Shown: piece after piece, positions 24,488 to 44,829 of the stretch
How the letters are laid out: every line of letters starts with the position of its first letter
Position numbering within the stretch: position 1 is the stretch's first letter
DNA from: Vicinamibacterales bacterium
Lineage (GTDB): Bacteria; Acidobacteriota; Vicinamibacteria; Vicinamibacterales; UBA8438
Assembly (NCBI GenBank): GCA_029940535.1
Contig: JAPYUM010000002.1
Coordinates: 19,264-83,263 of the forward strand
Direction: 5' to 3'
Length of the DNA stretch: 64,000 nt
Notes under the pieces: generated by a model
What the model was told of the DNA's origin: nothing
Seen by the model: only the letters and a program-made list of their open reading frames with translations
Databases searched by the model: none
Translations under genes and position numbers: made by a program

Positions 24488-24579
24488 GGCGCGCACATGC
24501 GCGTCTCGCGGCCGCGGAGTGGGGCACTCGGGGTCCCCGCGTAGCGGTCGCGTGGGGTTCGGGGCGCAGCCCCGTCTGA
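24488..24579 (-). repeat. Family-1 dispersed intergenic repeat (copy B, reverse)
   Basis: The reverse complement aligns along its whole length with copies at 4779 and 47382 (…GGAGTGGGGCACTCGGGGTCCCCGCG…GTGGGGTTCGGGGCGCAGCCCCGTCTGA). Confidence 0.85.
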
Positions 24580-24594
24580 AGAGGTCGCGCCCGT

Positions 24595-28395: not shown

Positions 28396-29418
28396 ATGGA
28401 GGTGCATGACCGGCTCGGCCGGCCCCTGGCGAACCTGCGGCTGTCGGTCACCGACCGGTGCAACCTTCGCTGCCAGTACTGCATGCCGGAACGCGACTAC
28501 GTGTGGCTACCGCGCGCCGACATCCTGACGTTCGAGGAAATCGAGACGCTGGTGGACGTGTTCACCTCGCTGGGCACGACAAAGGTTCGTCTCACCGGAG
28601 GAGAGCCGCTGTTGCGGAAAGATCTCCCCGACCTCCTAACCCTGCTGGCGCGCAAGCCGGCGCTCACGGACCTGGCGCTGACGACGAACGGTATTCTGCT
28701 CGCAGATCAGGTCGCGGCGCTTCGTGCCGCCGGGCTGCCGCGCATCACGGTGAGCCTGGACACGCTCGACCCGGACCGGTTCAAGGCCCTGACGAGATTC
28801 GACAGCCTGGACGCGGTGCTGACCGGCCTTGACCAAGCCGCCAACGCGGGGTTCGACAGCGTGAAAATTGACACCGTCGTCATTCGCGGCGTGAATGACG
28901 ATGAGCTGGCACCGATGCTCGAGCACGGTCGGCGGATCGGGGCCGAGGTCCGGTTCATCGAGTACATGGACGTCGGTGGCGCCACCCGCTGGTCGATAGA
29001 CGATGTCGTGTCGCGGCAGGACATGCTCCAGCGACTTGCCACGCACTACGGTACGGTCACGCCGGTCGACGAAAACACCGCCGCCCCGGCCGACCGCTTC
29101 ACGCTGCCCGACGGTACCGTGTTCGGGATCATCTCTTCCACTACCGAACCGTTCTGCCGCCAGTGCGATCGCAGCCGGCTGACCGCCGATGGAGGCTGGT
29201 ATCGCTGCCTCTATGCCACCGACGGCACCGATCTGCGCGAGCCACTCCGCGCCGGCGTCGGGGTCGAGGGCCTGCGCAGCCTCATTGCGGAGACATGGCG
29301 CGCCCGCGACGACCGCGGCGCCGAAGATCGGCTGTCATCCGAAGACCGCTCGCGCCTCATCCCCGTCGAAACCCTCCAGGACCAACCCCATCTCGAGATG
29401 CACACGCGCGGCGGGTAG
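28396..29418 (+). CDS. moaA: GTP 3',8-cyclase (molybdenum cofactor biosynthesis A)
   Basis: Radical SAM motif CNLRCQYC after LRLSVTDR, a C-terminal second cluster CxxCxxxxxxxxxxxxxC (CRQCDRSRLTADGGWYRC) and a GG tail. Confidence 0.95.
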   Translation: MEVHDRLGRPLANLRLSVTDRCNLRCQYCMPERDYVWLPRADILTFEEIETLVDVFTSLGTTKVRLTGGEPLLRKDLPDLLTLLARKPALTDLALTTNGILLADQVAALRAAGLPRITVSLDTLDPDRFKALTRFDSLDAVLTGLDQAANAGFDSVKIDTVVIRGVNDDELAPMLEHGRRIGAEVRFIEYMDVGGATRWSIDDVVSRQDMLQRLATHYGTVTPVDENTAAPADRFTLPDGTVFGIISSTTEPFCRQCDRSRLTADGGWYRCLYATDGTDLREPLRAGVGVEGLRSLIAETWRARDDRGAEDRLSSEDRSRLIPVETLQDQPHLEMHTRGG

Positions 29419-29509
29419 GCGAGCCCCCAGCGGCAAGCAGTTCCCCCTCATTTCCGGCGGGTGATGGTAGCGGAGGCACTGTTCGCCGGTCCGTTACAAT
29501 CTGAGCGCC

Positions 29510-31627
29510 ATGGCCGCTACCGACACGGACACTTCCACTGATTCCCTGGGCCCACTCCTGGAGCCCGCCTCGATCGCCATCATCGGCGCCTCGAACGACC
29601 CCACGCGTATCGGCGGGCGGCCACTGCTCTACACGCGAGACGCGGGATTCGCAGGCCCCATCTATCCGGTCAACCCGAATCGCGACAGCGTCCAGGGCCT
29701 CCCGTCCTTCGCCAGCATCGGCGAGGTGCCGGGACCGGTCGACACCGCCATCATCGCGGTCCCGGCCCCGGCCGTGGTCGAGACCACCGAAGCGTGCGCC
29801 GCCGCCGGGGTGAAGGCCGTCATTATTTTCAGCGCCGGGTTCGCTGAAATGGGCGACGACGGCCGACGCCACCAGACCGCGATCGGCCAGATCGCGCGCT
29901 CGACCGGGATGCGGATCGTCGGACCGAACTGTCTGGGCGTCTACAACGCGAATCACGGTTTCTTCGGCACGTTCACGTCGACCTTCGAGGCGGGCCAACC
30001 GCGACCCGGTCGGGTCGGGCTGGTGAGCCAAAGCGGGGCCTACGGGAGCCACCTGTCGCTCCTCGCGACCTTGCGAGGCATCGGCATCCGATTCTGGGTG
30101 ACGACCGGCAATGAGTGTGACGTCGACGTGGCCGAGACGATCGGCTGGTTTGCCGACCATCCAGATGTCTCGGTCATCGTGGCCTACGCGGAAGGCATAC
30201 GAGACCGCGACCGACTGTTTGCGTCGCTGGCGCTGGCTCATGAACGCCGGAAGCCGGTCATCTTTCAGAAAGTCGGTCGTACCGAGGTCGGCGCCGACGC
30301 GGTGCGGTCGCACACTGCGTCAATGGCCGGATCCGATGCGATCTACGACGGCGTCTTCCGTCAGTTCGGCGTCTACCGGGCCACGAACACGGAGGAGATG
30401 CTCGATATCGCCTATACGGCGTCGTTTGGCATCTTCCCGGCCAGCCGGCGAGTCGGGCTCATGAGCATTTCCGGCGGGGTCGGCGTGCAGATGGCCGACG
30501 AGGCGGTGGAGCGCGGGCTCGATGTGGCCCCGATGAGCGATGCGGCCCAGGCCAAACTCAAGGCGGCGCTCCCCTTCGCCGCACCCCGCAACCCGGTCGA
30601 CATCACCGCCCATGCCTTCAACGACCCGGGCCTGGTCGGCACCAACCTGGACGTGATGCTGGCGGAAGGTACATACGACTCCATCGTCGCCTTTTTTACC
30701 TATGTCGCGGCCGCCAAGGCGATGGTTGGTCCGATCAGTGACGCCCTGCGAGCCGCGAAGACCGCGTATCCACGTTGTCTGCTGGTGCTGTCGATCGTCG
30801 GCCCGCCCGACGTCATTACGCGCTACGAGGAAGCCGGGTGCCCGGTGTTCGAGGACCCGACCCGCGCGGTGCGGGCGGTCGATGCGCTAGCGCATTTCGG
30901 CGACGTGTTCGCACGCCCGCTCCCGGATATGACCGCGTCGGGGCCGCCAGTCGTACCACTGCCAGCCGCGCCGATCGGCGAGGCCGTCGCCAAGGCGTTG
31001 CTCGTCGAGGCCGGCTTGCGGGTGGTGGATGAGCGCGCGTGCGCCACGACAGATGCCGCGGTGGCGGCGGCCACGACGCTCGGGTTCCCGGTGGCACTCA
31101 AGATCGCATCATCGGAGATTCCCCACAAGACCGACATCGGTGGCGTGATGCTCGGTCTGGACTCACCAGAAGAGGTCGCGCAGGCCTTCGCGGACGTGAC
31201 CGGACGGGCCCGAATGGCTCATCCCGAAGCCCGCCTCGACGGCGTCCTCGTGTCCCGAATGGTCACTGGGGGCGTAGAAACCATCATGGGCGTACGCTAC
31301 GACCCCACATTCGGCCCGGTCGTGATGTTCGGATTGGGTGGCATCTTCGTGGAAGTCCTCGAAGATGTCGCGTTCCGGGTGGCACCGTTCGACACGGCAG
31401 AGGCGCATCGGATGATGCGCGAGCTGCGGGGATTCCCGTTGCTCGATGGGGTGCGGGGCCGACCGCGCGGCGACCTCGACGCCACCGCGTCGGCGCTGGC
31501 CGCGCTCTCCCGTTTCGCGGCCGCCCATGCCGACGGCCTCGACAGCGCCGAGCTGAACCCGGTGGTGGTGCTGCCGGAAGGCCAGGGCGTCGTGGCGCTC
31601 GACGCGCTCGTGGTGCCAAAGGGGTAA
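29510..31627 (+). CDS. ADP-forming acyl-CoA synthetase (fused CoA-binding/ligase-CoA + ATP-grasp domains)
   Basis: 705 aa with N-terminal SIAIIGASNDPTRIGG, a succinyl-CoA-synthetase-like region and a C-terminal ATP-grasp (GFPVALKIASSEIPHKTDIGGV). Confidence 0.88.
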   Translation: MAATDTDTSTDSLGPLLEPASIAIIGASNDPTRIGGRPLLYTRDAGFAGPIYPVNPNRDSVQGLPSFASIGEVPGPVDTAIIAVPAPAVVETTEACAAAGVKAVIIFSAGFAEMGDDGRRHQTAIGQIARSTGMRIVGPNCLGVYNANHGFFGTFTSTFEAGQPRPGRVGLVSQSGAYGSHLSLLATLRGIGIRFWVTTGNECDVDVAETIGWFADHPDVSVIVAYAEGIRDRDRLFASLALAHERRKPVIFQKVGRTEVGADAVRSHTASMAGSDAIYDGVFRQFGVYRATNTEEMLDIAYTASFGIFPASRRVGLMSISGGVGVQMADEAVERGLDVAPMSDAAQAKLKAALPFAAPRNPVDITAHAFNDPGLVGTNLDVMLAEGTYDSIVAFFTYVAAAKAMVGPISDALRAAKTAYPRCLLVLSIVGPPDVITRYEEAGCPVFEDPTRAVRAVDALAHFGDVFARPLPDMTASGPPVVPLPAAPIGEAVAKALLVEAGLRVVDERACATTDAAVAAATTLGFPVALKIASSEIPHKTDIGGVMLGLDSPEEVAQAFADVTGRARMAHPEARLDGVLVSRMVTGGVETIMGVRYDPTFGPVVMFGLGGIFVEVLEDVAFRVAPFDTAEAHRMMRELRGFPLLDGVRGRPRGDLDATASALAALSRFAAAHADGLDSAELNPVVVLPEGQGVVALDALVVPKG

Positions 31628-31701
31628 GGGCGAGGCTTCAGGCTTCAGAACGAGGGTCGCTGAGGGAAGACCGGGGCGCAAGAGGCGTCGTACAAGCCGA
31701 G

Positions 31702-31727
31702 GGCCGCGCGGTTGTCGCCGCGCGGCC
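31702..31727. terminator. perfect 10-bp GC hairpin between convergent genes (candidate bidirectional terminator)
   Basis: GGCCGCGCGG-TTGTCG-CCGCGCGGCC, located between the acyl-CoA synthetase stop (31627) and the radical SAM stop (31782). No clear U-tract. Confidence 0.45.
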
Positions 31728-31781
31728 CGTTGTGTCCGTGCCGAAGCCTGAGGCCCGAAGCCTCGCGGGCGAACGAGCGAC

Positions 31782-33863
31782 CTACCCCACCTCGACCGTC
31801 TCGTCCTTTTTCTTCCCGCCAAGCCCCTGAATCTGGATGACGCCACTCTGTTCCGGCGCCTCTTCCTTCAACACGTGCTGGCGATAGAGGGCCGCCATCC
31901 GCTCATCTTCGGCCTTCTGTTTCATCTCGTCACGCGCCGCGATCTTCTCCTGCCGCGCGGTCTTGACGATGCCCTGGTCATCCAGGTCGGTCTGTAGCCC
32001 GGCCGCCACCGCCTCCGGGTCGAGCACGAGGTTGTGCTCCTTGCTGACCAGGTCGACGTCGTTGCCACCGGCGAAGATCTCGTGCCGTCCATGCTCGTCG
32101 TACCACTTGGTGAGCGTGGCGGTCATGTGCATCTTCTCGATGATGTTCCGCCAGCCAACCCCAGTGTTGTAGGCGCAGAAGGAAATCTCTCCCTCCTGGG
32201 TCGCATACGGAATGATGCAGCGCTCGGTCCGTCGGAAGTCGTAGTTAAACAGGTCCTGGAACCACATCCCGGCAATGAACAGGAAGTTCCAGCGGTCACC
32301 CCGACGCTTCGCAATATCGGCCTGGGTCCGGTCGCCCGTCACCTTTCCGTAGTCCTTGCCGGACGCCCCGAACGTCTTGTCGAACTTCTGCACCAAGTCC
32401 CACAGCTTGAAGTGGGTCGGCGCCTGGAACGGGTCGTAGTTGCGAATCAGCGCCATCGCCATCCCAAGCGTCGCCACTTTCCGGCTACGCCCACCGTCGG
32501 TGACCCGACCCAGGTCCTTGGCCAGCCGCTCCGCCTTCAAGAACGCGGTGACCGGGACCGACTCCTTGGTCTCCTTGTCGATCATGATGGCCATCCCGAT
32601 GCCGCAGTTCGGATGGCAACCGCAATTGAGTTGCCCCCAGTCGGCCTGCGGGCCATGCATGAAGTCGGCCGAATCGGTGAAGGTGCCCATGAACGAGATG
32701 GGGAACCAGTCACGTATCGGCTCGCCGATGCCGGTCTGGTTCTTCACGTCGTGGGCCAGGTGCGACAGGGTATAGCGCTGCGCGTGCCGACGCTCGTCGG
32801 TAATCTCCTCGTCGCGGCCGGTGAACGACACCGGCTGGAACGACAGGAAGTTGATCTTCTTCGGGTTGTCGAGCGCGAACTGCACAACCCGTCCGACCTG
32901 CTCGTTGTTGATCCCGTTGAGAATCGTGATGACCGGCACGATGTCCACGCCGGCGTTGTGCAGATTCTCGATGGCCCGCAGTTTCACATCGAACAGGTTG
33001 CCGACCAGCCGGTGGGAATTCGCGGCGTTGCCGACCCCATCGAACTGCAGATACGCATACCGCAGCCCGGCATCGGCGGCGGCACGGGCGAAATCCGGAC
33101 TCTTCGCAAACTCGATGCCGTTGGTGGCCGCCTGCACGCTGTTGTAGCCGACCTTCCGCGCGTAGCGGATGGCGTCGAGGAAGTACGGGGAGATGCTCGG
33201 CTCACCGCCGGAGAACTGCACCGACATCTGCCGCCTCGGCTTGATCGAGATGGCGTTGTCGAGCAACGTCTTGATGTCGTCCCACCCGAGCTCGTGGACG
33301 AATCCGACCTGGTTCGCGTCCATGAAACAGGGGTCGCACATCATGTTGCAGCGGTTCGTCAGGTCGATCGTCAGCACCGAGCCGCGACCATACTTGATGG
33401 TGCTACTGCCATGGTTGTGCAACTTCTCGTCGTTGTGGGCCCGCATGTCGCTGCCGGGGAACGAGTCTTCGAGGTGCTTGAAGAACGCGGTGTCCATCGC
33501 CATCACGTCCTCGAAGTGGCCGTGCTCGGGACAGTCCTTCACCATCAGAATCTTGCCGTCGCGTTCAATGATGTTGGCCTTGATCTCACCGACCTTCTCG
33601 TTGATCAAGATCTTGTAGTCGCGCTTGCCGTCTAGAATCTCCTGCCGCGCCTCACGCACGCACTTGGGACACAGCGAGTCGGTCTCACGAGGCCAGCCCA
33701 GGGGCGGCTTCACTTTCTCAGTCGACTTCAGCAACGGCTTGTCTGCCCACGCGGGGACAAACGACGATTTCTGGTTATATCGGTTCACCAAATCGAAGGC
33801 CCTGAATCCCGCGTCGGCAAGCAGGGTGAGTCCTTTTTCGGCGTATTTGATCGGCTTATGCAT
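31782..33863 (-). CDS. large radical SAM protein, Tes/GDGT-MAS-like (COG1964-type)
   Basis: CxxxCxxC motif CNMMCDPC preceded by a Cys/His metal site (LCPKC...KDCPEHGHFED). The ATG at 33863 (MHKPIKY) is preceded by GGAG. About 693 aa. Confidence 0.75.
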   Translation of the reverse strand: MHKPIKYAEKGLTLLADAGFRAFDLVNRYNQKSSFVPAWADKPLLKSTEKVKPPLGWPRETDSLCPKCVREARQEILDGKRDYKILINEKVGEIKANIIERDGKILMVKDCPEHGHFEDVMAMDTAFFKHLEDSFPGSDMRAHNDEKLHNHGSSTIKYGRGSVLTIDLTNRCNMMCDPCFMDANQVGFVHELGWDDIKTLLDNAISIKPRRQMSVQFSGGEPSISPYFLDAIRYARKVGYNSVQAATNGIEFAKSPDFARAAADAGLRYAYLQFDGVGNAANSHRLVGNLFDVKLRAIENLHNAGVDIVPVITILNGINNEQVGRVVQFALDNPKKINFLSFQPVSFTGRDEEITDERRHAQRYTLSHLAHDVKNQTGIGEPIRDWFPISFMGTFTDSADFMHGPQADWGQLNCGCHPNCGIGMAIMIDKETKESVPVTAFLKAERLAKDLGRVTDGGRSRKVATLGMAMALIRNYDPFQAPTHFKLWDLVQKFDKTFGASGKDYGKVTGDRTQADIAKRRGDRWNFLFIAGMWFQDLFNYDFRRTERCIIPYATQEGEISFCAYNTGVGWRNIIEKMHMTATLTKWYDEHGRHEIFAGGNDVDLVSKEHNLVLDPEAVAAGLQTDLDDQGIVKTARQEKIAARDEMKQKAEDERMAALYRQHVLKEEAPEQSGVIQIQGLGGKKKDETVEVG

Positions 33864-33953
33864 CTTTGGCTCCGGCAGCCGGGTCAACCCACAACCCGCG
33901 CTTGCGTCCAAGTCTTTTAAGAACCATAAGATAGTCCCTAATTGAGAAAAAAA

Positions 33954-33983
33954 CCCGAAGTTTCACTTGGAGGGCGTTTCGGG
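33954..33983 (-). terminator. candidate intrinsic terminator after alkB
   Basis: The minus strand reads CCCGAA-(18-nt loop)-TTCGGG followed by TTTTTTT. The loop is large, so the call is weak. Confidence 0.35.
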
Positions 33984-34043
33984 GGGGCGAACGGGCGCAT
34001 GGGGGGGGCGTTTGGCCCGCCGTCGCCAAGAGTGCGTTGCAGG

Positions 34044-34673
34044 CTATGGCGGGCTTGCGCCTTGGCGGAACGTGAGATTCAGCCGGCCATCGAAACCCAA
34101 CTCAGGTGGTCCCGTGTGTGGCAGCACGGCCGCCACGCCATGGAAACGCAAGCGACTCGGTCCTCCGAATACGAAGCCGTCGCCGGAAGCCAGCGGCACC
34201 ATCGTCTTCGCGTCCTTGCGCGTGAGCCCCCCGATGATGAACTTCGCGGTGTCACCCAGCGACACGGACACGATCGGGACACCGGCCGCCAGGGTGTCCT
34301 GGCGTTCATCCTTGTCCTGATGGAGCCCCATCTTACCGGCGGCATCGTAGGAGTTCAGGATGCAGACATCCGGGAGCAGTCGCATACCGGCCGCCTCCGC
34401 CATTCGCACGGCCAATGCCGACAGTTGCGGCGGCAGGGGCGGCGCCGGCCGGCCGTCGTGGTCCCGTCGACTGGCCTCATAGCGATAGGTGCGCGCGTTC
34501 CAGTGGCGTCCCAGGCACACCATCCGCACCCGCATCTGTCCACCGCCGCGCACCGTGGGGACATACCATCCCGTCGGCCCGTTGCCAATTGCCTGGCAGC
34601 GCTCAGCCAGCTCGAGCTGCTCAGCCAGCGACAGAAACCGCGGCAGATGGACCGCGCCGGGGAAGATCTCCAT
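34044..34673 (-). CDS. alkB: Fe(II)/2-oxoglutarate-dependent dioxygenase AlkB
   Basis: MEIFPGAVHLPRFLS... and the HxD...H facial triad context (MGLHQDKDE ... RLRFHGV). The ATG at 34673 was chosen; the upstream part of the track ORF runs into a repeat. Confidence 0.85.
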   Translation of the reverse strand: MEIFPGAVHLPRFLSLAEQLELAERCQAIGNGPTGWYVPTVRGGGQMRVRMVCLGRHWNARTYRYEASRRDHDGRPAPPLPPQLSALAVRMAEAAGMRLLPDVCILNSYDAAGKMGLHQDKDERQDTLAAGVPIVSVSLGDTAKFIIGGLTRKDAKTMVPLASGDGFVFGGPSRLRFHGVAAVLPHTGPPELGFDGRLNLTFRQGASPP

Positions 34674-34675
34674 AC

Positions 34676-34741
34676 CGGAGTGGGGCTCTCGGGGTCCCCG
34701 CGGAGTGGCCGCGTGGGGTTCGGGGCGCAGCCCCGTCTGAA
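34676..34741 (-). repeat. Family-1 repeat (copy E, reverse, truncated)
   Basis: CGGAGTGGGGCTCTCGGGGTCCCCGCGGAGTGGCCGCGTGGGGTTCGGGGCGCAGCCCCGTCTGA. It lacks the GCGCGC...GCGCGC hairpin end and abuts the alkB start codon. Confidence 0.8.
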
Positions 34742-34799
34742 TACTAGTGTAACAATGAGGCGGGGGGCGGACTCCCGATCGTTCGAGCACTCACATTCT

Positions 34800-35948
34800 A
34801 TGCCTCGTTCTTCTGATGTCGTCGTGGTCGGCGCCGGCGTCTTCGGGGCCTGGACGGCCCTCCAGCTTCGCCGCACCGGCCGGTCGGTCACGCTCGTCGA
34901 CGCCTTCGGGGCTGGTCACACCCGGTCCAGTTCCAGTGGCGCGACCCGAGTCATTCGAGTGGGATACGGCTCCGACTTGATCTACTCGCAGTGGGCCCAG
35001 CGCTCAGCTTACGCGTGGCGCGAGTTGTTTCGCGACTGGCGGCAGGAGTTGTTCACCCGCACCGGAGTGTTGTGGATGGCCCAGGACGACGACCAGAGCA
35101 TCAACGACACGATCGAAACCCTGAACCGCCTGCACGTTCCGTTCGAGAGCCTCGAGCGGAGTGCGCTCGAGCAACGGTTTCCGCAGTTTAATTTCGGCCC
35201 GATCACTCGTGGCCTCCTCGAACCCGACGCCGGAGTCATCATGGCCCGTCGAGCGGTGCAGATGGTTGTGCGCCAGGCGGTGAAGCAGAGCGTCGATTAC
35301 CGCATCACCGCGGTCACCGTGCCGACGGGGACGGGCGCTATTGATGGTCTCTCTGCCAGTGACGGCAGCCGCCTCACCGCCGGGACCTACGTGTTCGCCT
35401 GCGGCCCCTGGCTCGCGAAGCTGTTCCCATCGGTGGTCGGCGGCCGTCTCCAATCGACTCGCCAGGAAGTGTTTTTTTTCGGCGCCGAGCCTGGTACGCA
35501 GCGATTCGTTCCGCCGCACATGCCCGCGTGGATCGACGTCGCGGGCGGCGTCTACGGCGTCCCCGACCTCGAAGGACGAGGCTTCAAGATCGGACTGCAC
35601 CACCACGGCCCTCCGTTCGACCCGGACACCGGCGAGCGCATCGTCTCCGATGGCGCGCTCCAGTTGGCGCGCATGATCCTCGCCAAACGGGTCCCCTCCC
35701 TCGCACAGGCCCCACTGCTCGAAGCCCGGGTGTGCCAATACACGAACAGCGGAACCGGTGATTTTTTGATCGACCAACATCCAGACCATGACAACGTGTG
35801 GCTCGTCGGAGCCGGGTCCGGACACGGCTTCAAACACGGCCCTGCGGTCGGCGAATACGTGGCCGCTCAGTTGTCAGGCAGAGGGTCGCCAGAACCGAGA
35901 TTCACCCTCAACGCGCATCGTCCCGGTCAAGAGCGAAGAATCTTTTAG
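34800..35948 (+). CDS. FAD-dependent oxidoreductase (DAO / sarcosine-oxidase-like family)
   Basis: Dinucleotide-binding start DVVVVGAGVFGAWTA...LVDA and DAO-family length. Alternative start at 34755. The track ORF 33942..35948 is chimeric upstream. Confidence 0.85.
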   Translation: MPRSSDVVVVGAGVFGAWTALQLRRTGRSVTLVDAFGAGHTRSSSSGATRVIRVGYGSDLIYSQWAQRSAYAWRELFRDWRQELFTRTGVLWMAQDDDQSINDTIETLNRLHVPFESLERSALEQRFPQFNFGPITRGLLEPDAGVIMARRAVQMVVRQAVKQSVDYRITAVTVPTGTGAIDGLSASDGSRLTAGTYVFACGPWLAKLFPSVVGGRLQSTRQEVFFFGAEPGTQRFVPPHMPAWIDVAGGVYGVPDLEGRGFKIGLHHHGPPFDPDTGERIVSDGALQLARMILAKRVPSLAQAPLLEARVCQYTNSGTGDFLIDQHPDHDNVWLVGAGSGHGFKHGPAVGEYVAAQLSGRGSPEPRFTLNAHRPGQERRIF

Positions 35949-35967
35949 GTTTTCGGGCGCGTCGGGC

Positions 35968-38517
35968 CTAGCAGCAACCCGACCCAGGTTCGCAGCAGGC
36001 GTCGTTGTCAGGCCCGACCGTGATGTCGCGAATGCCGCTCGGGCCATCGACGATGGAGAACGAGCCGACGTAGGGTGCGTGTGACAGCTTGGCGGCGGTG
36101 TCGGTGCACACCTCGACCGCTTCCCCCCGTGGGAAGAGGTGCCCTTCCTCGTCGACGACTGCCTTCTGCGGACCCAGATAGATCGCGTACTGCCCGATGA
36201 ACTGACAGCCGGCCTTCTTCTCGAACTTGTAGCCTCGCACCGTCACGGAGTAGAACTTGCAGCCTTCGACCTCACGCCAGAAGGTCTTCTTCAGCACCGA
36301 CACCCCGTAGAATCCAGCCTTCTCTACCCCGGCCAGGAACGCCTCCTCGGTCAGTGCTCCCGAGATGCACTCGCCCCAGAGTTGGCCATCGGCCCGCATC
36401 TTTGGCGGCACCTCGTCCTCGGACACGATATCGGCCACGACGAGCCGCCCGTGGTCTTTCAGCACGCGCCAGATCTCACGGAAGACACGCGGCTTGTCCG
36501 GTGACAAATTGATGACGCAATTCGACGTCACCACGTCGACGGTCGTATCATCGACCGGGATCTCTTCGAGAAAGCCCTGTCTGAACTCGACCGCATCGTA
36601 GCCAAGCGCCTCGGCGACCTGGGGCTGACACTCGCGGGCGACCGACAGCATCTGGTCGGTCATGTCGACCCCGTAGATACGACCCTCGGGGCCCACTTTC
36701 TTGGCCGCGATGAAGCAGTCGATACCGGCGCCAGACCCGAGATCGACCATCGACTCTCCGGTGGCCAGTGCGGCGGCCGTGACCGGGCTGCCACACCCGT
36801 AGAACCGCTCGACAACCTCTTTGGGAATGTGCTCCAAATCGGCGGGCTCCGGCTGGACCGGACAGCAGAGCTCCTCTTGTGGTTTCTCCGCCGCGTCGCC
36901 GTAAAACTCACGCACCGTCAGACGCGACTTGTCGAGCACCTCTTCGGAGAGCACGCACGCCGAGTGCGTCGTCCGCACAATCGTGTCCTCATCATGCAGC
37001 GTGTGCTCGCCCATGCCGCGCAGCACGACGGGACGGTCGTAGCCTGCGTTCGGCTGCACGGTGGCCCGGCCCTCTCGAACCAGATCCGTGAAGGTGTCGG
37101 CGGCCAGACCTTTGTAGAGTTCGCAGTACGGATCGTGGGCGATGAACGCCGACCGCCGACTCCGGCCCTCGGCGGCCGCCGGCCAGTATCCGTGTTCGAC
37201 ATCGCCCCCCCCGCAGAGAAAACGTAACGAACAGGTCCGGCACAACGGTTTCCGCTCGACAGTCGCCTCGCGCAGGTCTCGGCAGACCGGGCTGGTCTTC
37301 CAGACCTCCTCGAGACGCTGTTCGGCCAAGTTGCCGCACCGCAACTCGGGCACCCCGGCCATCGAGGCCGATGGATACAAGTTCCCGTCCGTATACAGAC
37401 AGAGACTGCTCCAGCCAGCTCCGGCGAGGTCGTTCTTCACCCCGGGGCTGCCGTCGAGACGCAGCCGGAATTCCTCGATGTTGTCGATCGACACCCCGAG
37501 CTCGGTCGCCACCGCACGTGCCTTCCGCACGGCGGCCAGAATCTCCTCGGCGGCGGGCAGGTCAGCCAGTGCGCCGTCCAGCACGCGACCGCGACGGTGC
37601 GGCCACAACAAATGCACATTCCGGACGCCGTGGGCGTGTGCGAGTCGGACGATATCGTCCAGGGCATCGAGATTGTGACGCAGAATCGTCGCCGTCAGCG
37701 TCGGCCGCAGACCGGCGGCGACCGCAATGTCCACACCCTCCACGATGCGCTCAAACGTGCCATGACCACGAATCGGGTCGTTGATCGCGGCGGTCGGGCC
37801 GTCGAGGCTGATCTGAATCCGCAGACCGGGAACGGGCGCGTCGGCTGGGACGTCGGCGGCCGGCGTATGCGCCTCGACCACGGACAGCAACTGCACCAGT
37901 CGCGCCAGTCGCTCCCCCTTGAACATGGTCCCGTTGGTCAGAATCACCAACTCGCGGCCGTGCGTGCGCACGACACGGTCAGCCAGATCCAGAATATCCG
38001 GCCGCGCCAACGGCTCGCCACCGGTGAAGAACAGCCGTTGCGCTCCGAGCGTCACCGCTTGGTCGATGGCGTCGGCAATGACCTCGGTCGGTAGGCCTTG
38101 TTGACGCTCTGGCCCCGACGAGACCAAACAGTGCGCGCAACTCAAATTGCAGAAGTCGTTGACCTGGATCCACAGCTCGTACAGATGCTCCGTCTCCAGA
38201 TAGGCCGACCGGCCGAGGTACGGCGCCGGGGCGGCGCCGTCGGTCGACAGAAACCCCTGGCGAAGACCGTCGTGCGCGAATGTCTCGACATGCAGCCAAG
38301 CGCGAGTCACATCGAGCCCCGACGCGTTGGCGTAGTCGCGCACCACCTGCACGAAGGGGGTCCGACCATCGAACCGGCCCAGCAACCCCAACCCGCGATC
38401 GTCGGTGCCGATCCAGTGCGGTCTCGCGGGATCGAGCGCCACAGCGTCATTCCCGACGTCATGCACCGTATAGGCCGGTGCACGGAGCATGGTCTTGTCT
38501 TCAATCACGATAGGCAT
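35968..38517 (-). CDS. fusion protein: (PqqD-like N-domain?) + radical SAM/SPASM + full-length ArsM/AS3MT-type methyltransferase
   Basis: Radical SAM CNLSCAHC (aa 123-130) and a SPASM-like CRTCSLRFLCGGGD. The ArsM part spans aa ~525-849: CC (551/552), YGCG (575), VDLGSGAGID SAM motif, SNCVINL (667), WGECISGA (717), ...VEVCTDTA... and a Cys-rich tail CCEPGSGCC. Confidence 0.85.
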   Translation of the reverse strand: MPIVIEDKTMLRAPAYTVHDVGNDAVALDPARPHWIGTDDRGLGLLGRFDGRTPFVQVVRDYANASGLDVTRAWLHVETFAHDGLRQGFLSTDGAAPAPYLGRSAYLETEHLYELWIQVNDFCNLSCAHCLVSSGPERQQGLPTEVIADAIDQAVTLGAQRLFFTGGEPLARPDILDLADRVVRTHGRELVILTNGTMFKGERLARLVQLLSVVEAHTPAADVPADAPVPGLRIQISLDGPTAAINDPIRGHGTFERIVEGVDIAVAAGLRPTLTATILRHNLDALDDIVRLAHAHGVRNVHLLWPHRRGRVLDGALADLPAAEEILAAVRKARAVATELGVSIDNIEEFRLRLDGSPGVKNDLAGAGWSSLCLYTDGNLYPSASMAGVPELRCGNLAEQRLEEVWKTSPVCRDLREATVERKPLCRTCSLRFLCGGGDVEHGYWPAAAEGRSRRSAFIAHDPYCELYKGLAADTFTDLVREGRATVQPNAGYDRPVVLRGMGEHTLHDEDTIVRTTHSACVLSEEVLDKSRLTVREFYGDAAEKPQEELCCPVQPEPADLEHIPKEVVERFYGCGSPVTAAALATGESMVDLGSGAGIDCFIAAKKVGPEGRIYGVDMTDQMLSVARECQPQVAEALGYDAVEFRQGFLEEIPVDDTTVDVVTSNCVINLSPDKPRVFREIWRVLKDHGRLVVADIVSEDEVPPKMRADGQLWGECISGALTEEAFLAGVEKAGFYGVSVLKKTFWREVEGCKFYSVTVRGYKFEKKAGCQFIGQYAIYLGPQKAVVDEEGHLFPRGEAVEVCTDTAAKLSHAPYVGSFSIVDGPSGIRDITVGPDNDACCEPGSGCC

Positions 38518-38563: not shown

Positions 38564-39190
38564 CTACGTCGGCTGCGAAGCGCGGGCCGCGGCCACCGGC
38601 GCGGCCGCGGCCCGCTTGGTGTAGAAGAACCATAGTCGAAGCCCGAACAGGACCGCGAGCACGGCGGCGTAGACCAGCGGTGGGCCGATGTCGAGTTTCA
38701 CCAGCCACAGATAGTGCACGACGCCCGCCACGGCGGCCAGATACACCAGCCGATGCAACCGACGCCAACGTTGCCCACCGAGCCGGCGAATCATGCCTTT
38801 GGTCGACGTGAGCGCCAACGGCACGAGCAACACGAACCCCGTGAACCCGGCCGTGACATACCGCCGCTCGACAATGTCATCGAGAATCAGATCGAACGCG
38901 AAGAAGAAGTCCAACACCAGATAGGTGCTCAGATGGAGCACCGCGTAGAAGAACGCGAACAGCCCGACCATTCGGCGGTATGACGCGAGCGCTGACCACC
39001 CGAGCAGCTTCCGCAGCGGCGTCACGGCGAGCGCCGCGAGCAAGAACCGCAGCGTCCAGTCGCCGGTGCGATGGGTGATGTCCTCGATGGGGTTCGCGGT
39101 GAGTCCGCCAGTGAATGCCGCCCAGACCAACAGGCCCAGCGGGGTCAAGCACGCCGCAAACACCCACGGCTTGATGCGGCGCACCGTCAT
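38564..39190 (-). CDS. msrQ: protein-methionine-sulfoxide reductase heme-binding subunit MsrQ (YedZ)
   Basis: 208-aa ferric-reductase-like 6-TM protein with conserved His residues; immediately downstream of msrP. Confidence 0.9.
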   Translation of the reverse strand: MTVRRIKPWVFAACLTPLGLLVWAAFTGGLTANPIEDITHRTGDWTLRFLLAALAVTPLRKLLGWSALASYRRMVGLFAFFYAVLHLSTYLVLDFFFAFDLILDDIVERRYVTAGFTGFVLLVPLALTSTKGMIRRLGGQRWRRLHRLVYLAAVAGVVHYLWLVKLDIGPPLVYAAVLAVLFGLRLWFFYTKRAAAAPVAAARASQPT

Positions 39191-39233
39191 ATGGCCTCGC
39201 CCTCAGGCACCCCACCGAACCCGTCCGGTGTAC

Positions 39234-40193
39234 TCAGTAGTTCTCGACCAGATCCATGCCGTCGTAGAGGCTGGCCACCTGGTCGGCATAGCCGTTGAAT
39301 GGCTCGGTTCTCATTCTGAAGAAGCTGCCGATCCGACGCTCGCTCGCCTGACTCCACCGCGGATGACTCACGTCCGGGTTCACGTTCGAGTAGAACCCGT
39401 ACTCGCTCGGAATGGACACGTTCCAGGAATTTCTGGGCTGCTCCCGCACGAACTCCATCTTGACGATCGACTTGATGCTCTTGAATCCGTACTTCCAGGG
39501 CACCACCAACCGCAGCGGCGGGCCCTGCTGATTCATCAGCGTTTTGCCGTACACCCCGACGGCCAGAATGGCCAGCGGATGCATCGCCTCGTCCATTCGC
39601 AGTCCCTCGACATACGGCCATTGCAGGGACCGGCCCCGCTGGCCACGCATCTCCTCGGGACGATGCAACGTCTCGAACTTGACGTACTTCGCGTTCGACG
39701 TCGGCTCGAACCGCTTGATGAGGTCACCGAGCGGAAACCCGACCCACGGCACCACCATCGACCAGGCCTCGACACAGCGCAGTCGATAGATGCGCTCCTC
39801 CAGCGTGTGAGGACGCAGCAGGTCCTCGATCGCCACGTCGGCCGCCGGCTTGTTCATCTCGCCCTCGATCCGGACAGACCACGGGTCGATGGACATTTCG
39901 TGGGCGTATCGGGCGGGGTCTTCTTTGGCGGTGCCGAACTCATAGAAGTTGTTATAGCTCGTAATGTCCTCGTACGAGTTGGGCTCGTCGTCGGTGCTGA
40001 GCGGCGACTTCACGAGATTCGGAATCGGCTCCTGGGCCTGCGCCGTCCCGTCGTATCGTCCAAGCACAGTGCCGCCCGCGATGGCGCCGGCCACCGCGCC
40101 GGACGTGGTCTGAATAAACTGCCGGCGGTTGCGATACACCCGCTCGGGCGTAATCTCCGACGAGCGAATGTCCGGCGCTTGCTTGATCAGCAT
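39234..40193 (-). CDS. msrP: protein-methionine-sulfoxide reductase catalytic subunit MsrP (YedY), molybdopterin enzyme
   Basis: Tat signal [11 protein letters not shown] and the sulfite-oxidase-family Moco domain ([19 protein letters not shown]). Confidence 0.93.
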
Positions 40194-41172: not shown

Positions 41173-41682
41173 CTACAAACGATTCGTGCACCCCGGCCGG
41201 CATCGACACACGATCTCTTTGTCGCCGTCGGTGTGGTAATCGTAGGTGAGTTCCTCACCGGCCTTGATGTTCCGACCGGCAATGATCCAGATTTTGTGGT
41301 CGATGATGTTGCTGTAGCAGTTGGGTTTGCACGCATGGTTGATAAACCGTGCGACGTTCCCGTTCACGTTCGCGTCAATGACCGAGCGCCGGGTCACGCG
41401 GAAGCACCAAATCTCGCCGCGTCGGAGATACCGGTCCTCTCGGTCTTCACTCTCCTTCGAGGTGATTTTCTCCCCGTCGTAGGTGATGATGCGCTTGTTC
41501 TTGTTCATGTCCTCAAGCGCGAACACCCCCCAGCCGTGCAGGGCGGAGCGCTTGCGGCGTATTCGAGGCAGATATATCGCACCCAATCTCGTGTGCCTCT
41601 TGGTTCTCGATGCCTGGTGTCCGACCTCGGGACGACATAGCTGCCGTCGGAGCTCGCGCGTCACGCAAAACCGCAGCATCAT
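41173..41682 (-). CDS. SET domain-containing protein (putative protein-lysine methyltransferase)
   Basis: HGWGVFA...NVARFINHACKPNC...ELTYDY... and post-SET Cys CRCRPGC. Start taken at the MML.. ATG (41682) and uncertain. Confidence 0.85.
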   Translation of the reverse strand: MMLRFCVTRELRRQLCRPEVGHQASRTKRHTRLGAIYLPRIRRKRSALHGWGVFALEDMNKNKRIITYDGEKITSKESEDREDRYLRRGEIWCFRVTRRSVIDANVNGNVARFINHACKPNCYSNIIDHKIWIIAGRNIKAGEELTYDYHTDGDKEIVCRCRPGCTNRL

Positions 41683-41727
41683 AGCAGTCTGGCGGCACGG
41701 TCCGACCGCACGCATACAATCGCGCCC

Positions 41728-42114
41728 GTGACGTCCCCCTGCCAGGAGCCGCAACCGGCACTGCTGCGACGCGGCATCGAGCAGTTCAACCGCGGGGAAT
41801 TCTTCGAGCAGCACGAAACCCTGGAAGACCTCTGGCGGGAGGAGTCACGGCCGATCCGAACCCTCTATCAAGGCATCCTGCAGATCGGGGTCGCGATGTA
41901 TCACGTGCAACGCCGCAACCACCACGGCGCCGTCTACATGCTGACCCGGGGCAGCGACTACCTTCGCCCGTTCGCCCCGTCATGCCAAGGCGTGGACGTC
42001 GCCGACCTGCTACAGCAAGCCGCGCGCGCCCTGGACGAAGTGGAACGCCTGGGTCCGAAACGACTCGACACCTTCGAGTGGTCCCTGTCGCCGCGCGTCC
42101 GCGGCAGTGGGTGA
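41728..42114 (+). CDS. DUF309 domain-containing protein
   Basis: FNRGEFFEQHETLEDLWREE...YQGILQIGVAMYHVQRRNHHGA is the DUF309 signature. Confidence 0.8.
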   Translation: MTSPCQEPQPALLRRGIEQFNRGEFFEQHETLEDLWREESRPIRTLYQGILQIGVAMYHVQRRNHHGAVYMLTRGSDYLRPFAPSCQGVDVADLLQQAARALDEVERLGPKRLDTFEWSLSPRVRGSG

Positions 42115-43695: not shown

Positions 43696-44829
43696 CTAGC
43701 CCCCGGTCCGTCGCTCGGGCACTTCAGCGTGCGGCGGGCCCGGGGCAAACGCTCGCATCGCGAAGCCGGCGCCGTCGCCGGAGGCGACCAGGGCCGGTGA
43801 ACCGCAGCGTCTCTCCCCAACCAGCCTCGACAAGCGGGACATGAGCGTGGTGACCCGGGCGGCGTCCGGTCGCGCACGCGCCAGCAGCGAGATCTGTCGG
43901 CCTCCTGTCGGCGCCGGGTCGACGACCACGGTGACCTCCCTCACCCCAGCGCGCGGCGGGTTCAGGTCCAGTTCGAGCCGCACCAGCGTCCGCAGCGCCT
44001 TCGACTCACGCGTTGGAGTGGCGAGCGTCACCCGCGTGGCGTGGATTTCCCCCGTGACCAGCTTCAACTGCACCTGCACCACTGACGCGCCGGCGCTTGT
44101 CTGAGCCAGCCGTTCGCATAGGGTCTCGAACAGGCGGCTCAACACGAAGGAGAGCGGATCGAGCCCCTCGACCGGTGTCTCGAGCCTCAGAGTCGACTCG
44201 ACTCGCTGGTCCGCCGACGCCACCGTCCACGACGGGTCGTCTTCCCCGCGCGCGAACCGTTGCAACGCCAGGCCCCCCGGCCCCAGTCGCTCCAGCAGTG
44301 TCGCCGAGGACTGATGGGCCAGGTCACCCAGCGTGCGTACTCCCCAGCGACGCACCGTCGACAACAGCGCGAAGGCCGGGATGGCCAACCCCGCTCCTGC
44401 CACCGGCGCCCTTCGGCGCGCTTGCCCCGTCACGCCCCGTGCCTGCCGCCGCGCCAGCGTACGCAAGACGTCGAGCGGGAGGGACGCCAACACCGCCGCT
44501 TCCTGCCCAGGCTCGACCACGGTCAGTCCACTGCGCGCTTGGACGATCAACAACGCCGCCGACCGGGTCGGCGCCACGGCGATGCGGAGATACAGGCGCC
44601 GGTCGGCGGCCACTCGGCGGAGCGTGGCCCCCAGCTCCCGGCTGTTCCCGACCCGATCCGTGATCCCCGTCGCGTCGAGTACGACGAGATTGTCGCCATG
44701 CACCTCGACCCTCGGCGACTGTTCACGTGCCAGCCGCACGAGTTCATTGGTGACGAGTTTGGCGCGTGGCACCCCGTCGTTGGATCGGAACGCGAGACCG
44801 CGTGACGGAGCGTAGAGACAAGCAAACAT
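43696..44829 (-). CDS. imuB: ImuB-like Y-family DNA polymerase homologue
   Basis: MFACLYAP... start typical of ImuB and a Y-family fold region; directly downstream of the imuA-like gene. Confidence 0.75.
   Translation of the reverse strand: MFACLYAPSRGLAFRSNDGVPRAKLVTNELVRLAREQSPRVEVHGDNLVVLDATGITDRVGNSRELGATLRRVAADRRLYLRIAVAPTRSAALLIVQARSGLTVVEPGQEAAVLASLPLDVLRTLARRQARGVTGQARRRAPVAGAGLAIPAFALLSTVRRWGVRTLGDLAHQSSATLLERLGPGGLALQRFARGEDDPSWTVASADQRVESTLRLETPVEGLDPLSFVLSRLFETLCERLAQTSAGASVVQVQLKLVTGEIHATRVTLATPTRESKALRTLVRLELDLNPPRAGVREVTVVVDPAPTGGRQISLLARARPDAARVTTLMSRLSRLVGERRCGSPALVASGDGAGFAMRAFAPGPPHAEVPERRTGG

What the first reader, a model, noticed from the sequence alone, without database searches (positions are those of the whole stretch)
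31782..33863. Tes/GDGT-MAS-like radical SAM protein in a bacterial genome (candidate membrane-spanning lipid synthase)
The ~693-aa protein has an N-terminal Cys/His metal site (LCPKC…ANIIERDGKILMVKDCPEHGHFED) followed by a radical SAM CNMMCDPC core and a long C-terminal extension. From memory, this N-terminal pattern plus core matches the COG1964 family that includes archaeal tetraether synthase (Tes / GDGT-MAS, e.g. MJ0619). Bacterial homologues, notably in Acidobacteria, have been proposed as synthases of branched GDGT or membrane-spanning lipids but remain largely uncharacterised. The gene looks monocistronic, with an AT-rich promoter-like region at 33864..33950 and a GC hairpin after its stop. 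It also looks somewhat less GC-rich than its neighbours, although I did not compute this.
Basis: partly seen in the sequence, partly recalled or inferred. Interest (0 to 1): 0.65.

Follow-up and report, generated by a model that had tools for sequence, protein, structure and literature searches.

The report
Acidobacterial Tes-like radical SAM enzyme
A marine acidobacterium carries a very highly conserved bacterial cousin of the archaeal enzyme that joins two lipid tails into membrane-spanning lipids; it keeps the catalytic metal sites but has lost one iron-sulfur cluster, and is a plausible but untested candidate for making the bacterial brGDGT lipids used as palaeothermometers.

Summary
Window 31782..33863 (-) encodes a 693-aa radical SAM protein whose only close structural and sequence relative is archaeal tetraether synthase, GDGT-MAS/Tes (HMMER E=6e-60; Foldseek E=8.5e-37, TM 0.85). 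It keeps the rubredoxin-like site, the radical SAM motif, all SAM-contact residues, the catalytic C-terminal [4Fe-4S] ligands with the labile Met, and the conserved Tyr. It is not a canonical Tes. It scores 310 bits against NCBI's Tes equivalog model (cut-off 450). [quoted passage not shown] It also has clade-specific N- and C-terminal extensions. The clade is found almost only in Acidobacteriota, in at least 597 species genomes, at 73-91% identity across classes. It always stands alone, with no lipid genes nearby. By length and identity it matches Acid_2410, the second Tes homologue of the brGDGT producer Solibacter usitatus; this is inferred. It is also present in cultured Alloacidobacterium dinghuense. 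The most likely function is tail-to-tail C-C coupling of branched lipid chains to give iso-diabolic-acid or brGDGT-type lipids. No bacterial Tes homologue has yet been tested. The general hypothesis was published in 2022. The distinction between subfamilies and the reduced cofactor set appear to be new.

The parts
31782..33863 (-). CDS of the Tes-like radical SAM protein, 693 aa, with the stop codon at 31782-31784
   Evidence: ORF list. Pfam PF23545 plus PF04055. Best PDB match is GDGT-MAS. The start is supported by the SD and by the conserved N-terminus.
33687..33863 (-). Clade-specific N-terminal extension, aa 1-59. Contains an amphipathic helix at aa 3-29 that may associate with the membrane or pack against the core.
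   Evidence: Absent from GDGT-MAS. AF2 helix 3-29 has pLDDT 84-95. It has the highest hydrophobic moment in the protein, muH 0.57. Conserved across the phylum.
33498..33686 (-). Rubredoxin-like zinc-ribbon domain, aa 60-122. Ligands are C65, C68, C111 and H114. A 22-aa insertion (aa 71-92) makes the spacer 42 residues instead of 20.
   Evidence: Pfam PF23545, E=1e-14. Ligand columns are 100% conserved. The spacer is 42 residues in 385/386 clade members.
33375..33497 (-). [quoted passage not shown] It has no cysteines. Only the His equivalent to H83 (H151) is retained.
   Evidence: No Cys lies between C111 and C172. 0/391 clade members have C-x3-C-x2-C-x2-H, against 119/119 archaeal Tes. This is the only low-confidence internal stretch of the model (aa 146-159).
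32814..33374 (-). Radical SAM core, aa 164-350. Cluster ligands are C172, C176 and C179, followed by F180. SAM and 5'-dA contacts are G220, Y271, D275, V311, T313, Q343, S346, T348 and R350.
   Evidence: Pfam PF04055, E=4.7e-17. All contact residues named for GDGT-MAS in PMC9433317 are conserved in both clades.
32094..32813 (-). C-terminal auxiliary-cluster and lipid-pocket domain, aa 351-590. Contains C420, C549 and C563, M533 (the M439 equivalent) and Y553 (the Y459 equivalent). There is an 18-aa insertion at aa 497-514.
   Evidence: These columns are invariant across the window clade and archaeal Tes. The M-x-F-x-D motif is in 386/386 and the C-x-Y-N motif in 385/386 clade members.
31785..32093 (-). 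Clade-specific C-terminal extension, aa 591-693. A charged helix spans aa 632-663, followed by a disordered, Lys/Glu-rich tail.
   Evidence: It lies beyond the end of the GDGT-MAS alignment. AF2 pLDDT is 30-68.
33870..33873 (-). Shine-Dalgarno GGAG, 6 nt before the ATG
   Evidence: Read directly from the sequence.
33912..33957 (-). AT-rich upstream stretch that begins with a T7 run. It is a possible promoter region, or the end of the upstream AlkB-like transcript.
   Evidence: Sequence. Local GC minimum. No sigma-70 consensus. The stem plus U7 fold is not better than chance.
31701..31728 (.). Perfect 11-bp GC hairpin with a 6-nt loop, between the convergent Tes-like and acyl-CoA ligase genes
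   Evidence: -30.2 kcal/mol, z=-3.27, matched by 1/200 shuffles. Assembled contigs of four runs break here.

Best explanation
The gene encodes a soluble or peripheral-membrane radical SAM enzyme of the tetraether-synthase (Tes/GDGT-MAS) superfamily. It belongs to an Acidobacteriota-specific subfamily. The most likely mechanism follows GDGT-MAS. The enzyme binds two glycerolipids with one tail in each of two hydrophobic pockets. The radical SAM cluster (C172/C176/C179) cleaves SAM to 5'-dA radical, which abstracts H from the terminal carbon of a methyl-branched (iso-C15-type) chain. The substrate radical is parked on a sulfide of the C-terminal [4Fe-4S] cluster (C420/C549/C563, with labile M533). 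A second SAM then generates a radical on the other tail, which attacks to form the Csp3-Csp3 bond. The product would be an iso-diabolic-acid or brGTGT/brGDGT-type membrane-spanning lipid. Electrons would enter through the rubredoxin-like site (C65/C68/C111/H114). Unlike archaeal Tes, there is no N-terminal auxiliary cluster. What is shown: homology, fold, and retention of every residue known to matter in GDGT-MAS catalysis. What is inferred: the substrate, the product and the membrane association.
For: GDGT-MAS is the only close structural and sequence relative. HMMER gives E=6e-60 over aa 93-587. Foldseek gives E=8.5e-37 with TM 0.85-0.86, and the next hit is MoaA at 2e-08 with TM 0.53. The model has pLDDT 81 and pTM 0.83. 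All ligands of the rubredoxin, radical SAM and C-terminal clusters, plus M439, Y459 and ten SAM/5'-dA contacts, are 100% conserved in the clade. GDGT-MAS itself binds bacterial ester-linked phosphatidic acid in its pockets, and the tail termini of iso-branched fatty acids and of phytanyl chains are chemically the same (PMC9433317, PMC8941075). The clade is present in at least 597 species genomes, and the best 80 are almost all Acidobacteriota: Vicinamibacterales, Bryobacterales, Terriglobia and Blastocatellia. These correspond to the subdivisions (1, 3, 4, 6) reported to make iso-diabolic acid while lacking Mss (PMC13159169). Identity of 73-91% across classes indicates strong purifying selection. 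Codon-position GC shows the gene is native. The brGDGT producer S. usitatus has a 714-aa homologue, Acid_2410, 30.1% identical to MA_1486, which fits this clade. The only homologue reported in E. aggregans (32%, 4e-61; PMC8941075) fits it too. MAGs labelled Edaphobacter and cultured Alloacidobacterium dinghuense carry the clade.
Against: No bacterial Tes homologue has been shown to make any lipid (PMC11868695, PMC13459092). The protein scores below NCBI's Tes equivalog cut-off (310 against 450), while canonical-type bacterial homologues pass at 463-593. It lacks the N-terminal auxiliary cluster, whose role is unknown. There are no lipid genes within the 64-kb window, and no conserved neighbour in 80 related loci. 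S. usitatus also has a canonical Tes homologue, Acid_5929, that could account for its brGDGTs. In the NJ tree the nearest branches to the window clade, including the Terriglobus roseus protein P0256, have lost the C-terminal cluster Cys, so this branch of the family is functionally plastic. The links to Acid_2410 and to E. aggregans rest on length, identity and E-value, not on the sequences themselves. Transcription could not be demonstrated.
Confidence: 0.5

Rival explanations
1. It is a lipid-tail-modifying radical SAM enzyme with a job different from primary tail-to-tail coupling. Examples would be a second or closing coupling step (brGTGT to brGDGT), coupling of ester-linked as opposed to ether-linked substrates, or another C-C or C-H transformation of the alkyl chain. 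It would work alongside a canonical Tes homologue where both are present.
For: S. usitatus has both a canonical-type homologue and a homologue matching the window type, which suggests their roles are not redundant. The window type forms a separate superclade from canonical Tes in the NJ tree. It has a different cofactor complement and extra N- and C-terminal segments. The C-terminal lipid-pocket domain is only about 26% identical to GDGT-MAS, and the bridge region about 9%.
Against: Every catalytic feature linked to the coupling chemistry is retained: the C-terminal cluster, Met and Tyr. There is no cobalamin or SPASM domain that would indicate methylation or cross-linking chemistry. Many genomes may carry only this type, as E. 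aggregans is reported to have a single homologue (PMC8941075).
Confidence: 0.25
2. It acts on a non-lipid substrate. One option is a small-molecule cofactor, as in the old annotation of MJ0619 as a 7,8-dihydro-6-hydroxymethylpterin dimethyltransferase. Another is an unknown substrate, as for the related TrsS family.
For: Many database entries name clade members as the pterin dimethyltransferase. The Pfam N-terminal domain carries the HMPTM name. TrsS is the second-best NCBIfam hit at 203 bits. There is no lipid gene context. MoaA is a frequent neighbour within Vicinamibacterales.
Against: The pterin-methylase assignment could not be reproduced, and the GDGT-MAS structure was argued to contradict it: a long hydrophobic channel with bound lipids (PMC9433317). 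Acidobacteria are not known to make methanopterin (general knowledge). The TrsS score is far below its cut-off of 490, and TrsS has no known function (PMC13188914). The MoaA adjacency does not hold outside the order.
Confidence: 0.15
3. It is a catalytically degenerate or purely structural or regulatory relic of a Tes-like enzyme.
For: The N-terminal cluster has been lost. The branches nearest the window clade in the NJ tree have lost further clusters.
Against: Identity is 73-91% across classes, and all radical SAM, SAM-binding and C-terminal cluster residues are invariant in 386-391 sequences. That pattern is not expected of a relic.
Confidence: 0.03

Closest known systems
GDGT-MAS / tetraether synthase Tes (M. 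jannaschii MJ0619, PDB 7TOL/7TOM; M. acetivorans MA_1486; NCBIfam NF045702)
   Same: Overall fold, with TM 0.85 over the whole target. Rubredoxin-like C-x2-C...C-x2-H site. Radical SAM C-x3-C-x2-C-F motif. All SAM/5'-dA contacts. C-terminal [4Fe-4S] ligands with the labile Met. The conserved Tyr.
   Different: Only 29-35% identical. Scores 310 bits against a cut-off of 450. No N-terminal auxiliary [4Fe-4S] cluster, so two clusters are predicted instead of three. The rubredoxin spacer is 42 residues instead of 20. There are about 59 extra N-terminal residues with an amphipathic helix, an 18-aa insertion, and about 100 extra C-terminal residues. The host is bacterial, so the substrate cannot be the usual archaeol.
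Canonical-type bacterial Tes homologues (e.g. S. usitatus Acid_5929, 545 aa; representatives P0307, P0312, P0299, P0318 and the Phycisphaerae protein P0385)
   Same: Bacterial hosts, the same superfamily, stand-alone genes in the two contexts examined, and no experimental characterisation.
   Different: They keep the N-terminal cluster motif, are 37-45% identical to archaeal Tes, pass the equivalog cut-off at 463-593 bits, group with archaeal Tes in the NJ tree, and are shorter at about 545 aa.
Cluster-depleted relatives in the NJ tree (Terriglobus roseus WP_014786616.1 = P0256; also P0268 and P0304)
   Same: Same branch of the NJ tree, at 34-40% identity. They have no N-terminal cluster, keep the rubredoxin site and the radical SAM motif, and include an acidobacterial host.
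   Different: They have also lost the C-terminal cluster cysteines and the conserved Tyr, so the Tes coupling mechanism cannot apply to them. The window clade keeps all of these.
Mss, the bacterial membrane-spanning lipid synthase (Thermotoga / Thermoanaerobacter; PMC13159169)
   Same: The proposed reaction type is the same: radical SAM tail-to-tail coupling of bacterial fatty-acyl chains to diabolic or iso-diabolic acids. The literature describes it as remotely related to Tes and proposes a similar cluster-dependent mechanism (PMC13459092, PMC13274423).
   Different: It is a different radical SAM family, found in anaerobes and reported absent from Acidobacteria (PMC13159169). No Mss sequence was available here for a direct comparison.

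Membership tests
Tes / GDGT-MAS (NCBIfam NF045702 equivalog; PDB 7TOL) | Radical SAM C-x3-C-x2-C motif followed by Phe, plus the SAM/5'-dA contact residues (G145, Y195, D199, V236, T238, Q268, S271, T273, R275) | tested here: met
   Window C172/C176/C179/F180, G220, Y271, D275, V311, T313, Q343, S346, T348 and R350. These are 97-100% conserved in the clade.
Tes / GDGT-MAS (NCBIfam NF045702 equivalog; PDB 7TOL) | N-terminal rubredoxin-like mononuclear site, C9-x2-C12-x20-C33-x2-H36 | tested here: met
   C65, C68, C111 and H114 align and are invariant. The spacer is 42 residues, not 20.
Tes / GDGT-MAS (NCBIfam NF045702 equivalog; PDB 7TOL) | N-terminal auxiliary [4Fe-4S] cluster ligated by C73, C77, C80 and a conserved His | tested here: not met
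   There is no Cys between aa 111 and 172. 0/391 clade members have the motif, against 119/119 archaeal Tes. Only the His (H151) is retained.
Tes / GDGT-MAS (NCBIfam NF045702 equivalog; PDB 7TOL) | C-terminal auxiliary [4Fe-4S] cluster (C338, C455, C470) with the labile Met439, and the strictly conserved Tyr459 | tested here: met
   C420, C549, C563, M533 and Y553 are invariant across both clades.
Tes / GDGT-MAS (NCBIfam NF045702 equivalog; PDB 7TOL) | Whole-protein fold of GDGT-MAS | tested here: met
   AF2 model with pLDDT 81 and pTM 0.83. Foldseek against 7TOM/7TOL gives E=8.5e-37 and TM (target-normalised) 0.85-0.86.
Tes / GDGT-MAS (NCBIfam NF045702 equivalog; PDB 7TOL) | Score at or above the curated equivalog cut-off of 450 bits | tested here: not met
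   The window scores 310 bits. Controls: MJ0619 scores 744 and canonical bacterial representatives 463-593.
Tes / GDGT-MAS (NCBIfam NF045702 equivalog; PDB 7TOL) | Catalyses terminal Csp3-Csp3 coupling of two lipid tails through a cluster-sulfur adduct | not testable with these tools
   This needs lipid analysis or enzymology. No bacterial homologue has been tested (PMC11868695, PMC13459092).
Mss (bacterial membrane-spanning lipid synthase) | Sequence homology to T. maritima or T. ethanolicus Mss at E<=1e-50 and >=30% identity (the criterion used in PMC13159169) | not tested
The literature reports no Mss homologues in Acidobacteria (PMC13159169).
HMPTM (pterin dimethyltransferase annotation of MJ0619; Pfam PF23545 N-terminal zinc ribbon) | N-terminal zinc-ribbon domain PF23545 | tested here: met
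   54 bits against a cut-off of 27. This is a domain match only. The pterin-methylase function of MJ0619 was not reproduced, and the protein was reassigned to lipid coupling (PMC9433317).
TrsS radical SAM (seleno)protein (NCBIfam NF045646) | Score at or above the cut-off of 490 bits | tested here: not met
   203 bits, covering the radical SAM core only. Genuine Tes also scores 318-420 against this model, so the hit only reflects the shared core.

The most novel reading that the evidence does not exclude
This cluster-N-less, roughly 700-aa subfamily, and not Mss or the canonical Tes type, is the general acidobacterial synthase of iso-diabolic-acid and brGDGT membrane-spanning lipids. The published finding that only 3 of 14 iso-diabolic-acid-producing Acidobacteria have a Tes homologue would then be a threshold artefact, because the subfamily is 29-35% identical to archaeal Tes and the screen required at least 30%. 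It would also show that Tes-type C-C coupling needs only the radical SAM and C-terminal clusters. The presence of the gene in a marine and hydrothermal Vicinamibacterales would mark such bacteria as in-situ marine sources of brGDGTs.
Probability: 0.3. Interest if true: 0.8.

Novelty: new variant of a known kind. Interest (0 to 1): 0.55.

Why it matters
brGDGTs are among the most widely used terrestrial palaeotemperature and pH proxies, yet the enzyme that forms their membrane-spanning chains in Acidobacteria is still unknown. Mss is reported absent from the phylum, and no bacterial Tes homologue has been tested. The literature treats 'bacterial Tes homologues' as one group. This analysis splits them into two. 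The canonical type has three clusters, passes the equivalog cut-off and is patchily distributed. The second type is Acidobacteriota-wide, extremely conserved, has two clusters, and is the type encoded in this window. That gives experimenters a sharper choice of genes to express or delete: Acid_2410 against Acid_5929 in S. usitatus, and WP_186741669.1 in A. dinghuense. It also gives a clade-specific marker for reading brGDGT potential from metagenomes, and a natural experiment on what the N-terminal cluster of Tes is for. The host is a marine, vent-associated Vicinamibacterales, which bears on in-situ marine brGDGT production, a process that complicates proxy interpretation.

Tried and rejected
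1. Genomic context as a clue to function. Window neighbours recur in at most 11 of 80 related loci. De novo clustering found no neighbour family in more than 18 of 80 loci. Pfam annotation of about 40 window genes found only housekeeping or unrelated genes. Two canonical-type bacterial homologues are equally stand-alone. Context therefore discriminates nothing.

2. Horizontal transfer as the cause of the GC dip. Rejected, because GC3 equals that of the neighbours.

3. Expression evidence. Four runs labelled RNA-seq hold the locus, but depth is flat across both strands and across intergenic DNA, so the data are unusable.

4. Consensus promoter and terminator scans found nothing at the gene ends. 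The upstream stem plus U7 is no better than chance.

5. Direct confirmation that S. usitatus Acid_2410 or the E. aggregans homologue belongs to this clade. Neither sequence could be retrieved. The cluster look-ups and the last homologue search returned mostly MAGs, and the supplements of PMC8941075 and PMC13159169 gave nothing usable. The link stays an inference from length, identity and E-value.

6. No paper mentions Acid_2410 or Acid_5929 functionally.

7. TrsS and pterin-methylase readings were considered and set aside (PMC9433317).

8. Rfam found nothing in 31500-35000.
Full report
OBSERVATION. The minus strand of the window carries an ORF at 31782..33863, 693 aa from the ATG; an upstream TTG at 33911 would give 709 aa. 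The ATG is the real start. GGAG sits at 33873-33870, 6 nt before it, and the N-terminus MHKPIKY.EK is conserved in orthologues from four acidobacterial classes. Downstream, between this gene and the convergent acyl-CoA ligase gene, lies a perfect 11-bp GC hairpin at 31728-31701 (-30.2 kcal/mol, z=-3.3). It has no T-tract, and the consensus terminator scan does not call it. Upstream there is an AT-rich stretch beginning with a T7 run (33957-33912), but no sigma-70 consensus. The gene is about 4-6 points lower in GC than its flanks. Its third-position GC is 0.86, the same as its neighbours, so the dip reflects amino-acid composition and not foreign origin.

WHAT IT IS. Pfam finds the HMPTM-type N-terminal zinc ribbon (PF23545) and a radical SAM core. 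The best NCBIfam model is the Tes equivalog NF045702, at 310 bits over nearly the full model. That is below the curated cut-off of 450. TrsS is second at 203 bits against a cut-off of 490. Against the PDB, GDGT-MAS (7TOL/7TOM) is the only strong sequence match (E=6e-60, aa 93-587), with MoaA next at 3e-05. An AlphaFold2 model was built on an 81-sequence alignment of the clade plus archaeal Tes, and reached pLDDT 81 and pTM 0.83. It matches 7TOM/7TOL at E=8.5e-37 with TM 0.85-0.86 over the whole target, and the next hit is MoaA at 2e-08 with TM 0.53. There is no predicted transmembrane segment.

RESIDUE-LEVEL TEST AGAINST GDGT-MAS. The native MJ0619 sequence (P0121) reproduces the numbering of Lloyd et al., PMC9433317. 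Using it, the window protein and its whole clade keep:
- the rubredoxin-like site C9/C12/C33/H36 (window C65/C68/C111/H114);
- the radical SAM motif C98/C102/C105/F106 (C172/C176/C179/F180);
- the SAM/5'-dA contacts G145, Y195, D199, V236, T238, Q268, S271, T273 and R275;
- the C-terminal cluster ligands C338/C455/C470 with the labile M439 (C420/C549/C563, M533);
- the strictly conserved Y459 (Y553).

One defining feature is missing. The N-terminal auxiliary cluster motif C73-x3-C77-x2-C80-x2-H83 has no cysteines here, and the protein has no Cys at all between residues 111 and 172. In a census of every full-length sequence gathered, 0 of 391 clade members have the motif and 119 of 119 archaeal Tes do. 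Clade members have exactly three Cys upstream of the radical SAM motif, against six in most archaeal Tes (98 of 119). This stretch is also the only low-confidence internal part of the model (aa 146-159). Other clade-specific features are:
- a 59-aa N-terminal extension whose helix 3-29 is the most amphipathic segment of the protein;
- a 22-aa insertion in the rubredoxin domain, giving a spacer of 42 instead of 20 residues in 385/386 members;
- an 18-aa insertion at aa 497-514;
- a C-terminal extension of about 100 aa, made of a charged helix and a disordered tail.

FAMILY STRUCTURE. An exhaustive search of 1.84 billion cluster representatives found 588 representatives at E<=1e-30. A ligand table and a neighbour-joining tree of full-length members separate two groups. 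The canonical Tes group comprises archaeal enzymes plus bacterial or metagenomic representatives, such as a Phycisphaerae protein. They keep the N-terminal cluster, are 37-45% identical to archaeal Tes and score 463-744 bits on the Tes model. In the tree, the second superclade contains the window clade and P0241. Branches near them have lost the C-terminal cluster cysteines as well, including the protein of cultured Terriglobus roseus DSM 18391 (P0256, WP_014786616.1). Cluster-N-less members score 239-414 bits. P0254 has the highest score; it lacks the N-terminal cluster but branches beside the canonical group in the tree. The tree is a quick NJ tree and should be treated as provisional. The motif and score differences do not depend on it.

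DISTRIBUTION AND CONTEXT. The best 80 are almost all Acidobacteriota: Vicinamibacterales (best hit 91%), Bryobacterales including Solibacter and Paludibaculum MAGs, Terriglobia/Acidobacteriaceae, and Blastocatellia. Identity is 73-91% over the full length. So the window comes from a Vicinamibacterales bacterium. Its sequence is held word-for-word in hydrothermal-vent metagenomes and nearly so in many marine ones. That level of conservation across classes points to strong purifying selection. The neighbourhood is not conserved. Within Vicinamibacterales there is only loose synteny with a DAO oxidase, MoaA and an acyl-CoA ligase. No ether-lipid, fatty-acid or other GDGT-related gene lies anywhere in the 64-kb window. 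Two canonical-type bacterial genes are also stand-alone. Cluster look-ups found the window type in cultured Alloacidobacterium dinghuense (WP_186741669.1, 697 aa, same motif pattern) and in MAGs labelled Edaphobacter, Terracidiphilus and Candidatus Korobacteraceae.

LINK TO THE LITERATURE.
- Zeng et al. (PMC8941075) found 456 bacterial Tes homologues and proposed a role in brGDGT synthesis. They noted 40-42% identity for Koribacter and Solibacter, and a single 32% (4e-61) homologue in the brGDGT producer Edaphobacter aggregans.
- Halamka et al. list two homologues in S. usitatus: Acid_5929 (545 aa, 40.2%) and Acid_2410 (714 aa, 30.1%, 4e-62).
- The window clade is about 700 aa and 29-35% identical to archaeal Tes. 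The canonical bacterial representatives are about 545 aa and 40-45% identical. I therefore infer that Acid_2410 and the E. aggregans protein belong to the window clade. Neither sequence could be retrieved, so this is not shown.
- Sahonero-Canavesi et al. (PMC13159169) found Mss absent from Acidobacteria, and Tes homologues in only 3 of 14 iso-diabolic-acid producers, using a >=30% identity threshold. The window clade straddles that threshold, so it may have been under-counted.
- As of 2025-2026 no bacterial Tes homologue has been tested experimentally, and no paper mentions Acid_2410 or Acid_5929 functionally.

MECHANISM. The best-supported reading (confidence about 0.5) is a GDGT-MAS-type reaction on bacterial branched-chain glycerolipids. 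The steps are: SAM cleavage at the radical SAM cluster; H abstraction from a terminal carbon; storage of the first radical as a C-S adduct on the C-terminal cluster; a second SAM-derived radical; then Csp3-Csp3 bond formation. The product would be an iso-diabolic-acid, brGTGT or brGDGT-type chain. Homology, fold and conservation of all residues implicated in GDGT-MAS are shown. The substrate, the product, membrane association through the N-terminal helix and electron entry through the rubredoxin site are inferred. Lloyd et al. state that the roles of the non-catalytic cofactors are unclear and that the N-terminal cluster lies on the protein surface. Its loss here suggests that it is dispensable for the core chemistry, or is replaced by a different electron route. 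Rivals are a distinct lipid-tail reaction or sub-step (0.25), a non-lipid substrate (0.15) and a degenerate relic (0.03).

VERDICT. The general idea, that bacterial Tes homologues may make brGDGTs, was published in 2022, so it is not new. What I did not find described in the papers searched here: this is a separate, Acidobacteriota-wide, exceptionally conserved subfamily; it fails the Tes equivalog test; and it carries two [4Fe-4S] clusters instead of three. I rate it a new variant of a known kind, with interest 0.55. It makes a long-standing question directly testable with named genes in cultured strains, but no function is demonstrated.

Noticed in passing
window 35968-38517 (-): An 849-aa fusion of a radical SAM/SPASM domain (aa ~113-445) with an ArsM-like arsenite methyltransferase domain (aa ~534-842; NF008823 at 238 bits, just under the cut-off of 263). 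It ends in CCEPGSGCC. It resembles the ArsS plus ArsM pairing of arsenosugar and arsinothricin pathways, but in one polypeptide. The same fusion (843 aa) lies near the Tes-like gene in a related Vicinamibacterales MAG (L083/L084).
   Followed up: partly
window 34676-34742 (+) and 24515-24581 (+): A dispersed, GC-rich intergenic repeat of about 67 nt, 62/67 identical between the two copies. It forms a hairpin, though no better than chance (z=-1.6), and has no Rfam match. Contig depth is about 15 times that of the flanks in four marine runs, with many loose ends, so it has many copies in the genome or the community. It looks REP- or MITE-like.
   Followed up: partly
window 29000-37000, runs X5, X6, X12, X16: Runs labelled oligo-dT RNA-seq of marine metagenomes hold this bacterial locus at flat depth across both strands and across intergenic DNA. 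The reads therefore look like DNA carry-over, or a host-associated sample, and not transcripts. Contigs in all four runs break at the convergent intergenic hairpin (31621-31747).
   Followed up: partly
P0256 (Terriglobus roseus DSM 18391, WP_014786616.1), not in the window: A cultured acidobacterium carries a 624-aa relative, about 40% identical to the window protein. It keeps the rubredoxin site and the radical SAM motif but has lost both auxiliary-cluster cysteine sets and the conserved Tyr. This is a further, functionally different subfamily. Whether T. roseus also has the window type is unknown.
   Followed up: partly
window 34044-34790 (-): An AlkB-like 2OG-Fe(II) oxygenase lies directly upstream on the same strand. 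The Pfam domain starts at aa 45 and the repeat element overlaps the first ~40 codons, so the true start is probably the Met at residue 40 (~34673).
   Followed up: no
window 38564-40193 (-): An MsrQ-like (Ferric_reduct) gene paired with an MsrP-like (Oxidored_molyb) gene. This is the pair of window neighbours most often shared with related loci (10-11 of 80).
   Followed up: no
window 41173-41814 (-): A 213-aa bacterial SET-domain protein (PF00856, E=4.5e-24).
   Followed up: no
window 43696-45600 (-): Adjacent RecA-like (244 aa) and IMS_C-domain (380 aa) genes, resembling an ImuA/ImuB mutagenesis cassette.
   Followed up: no
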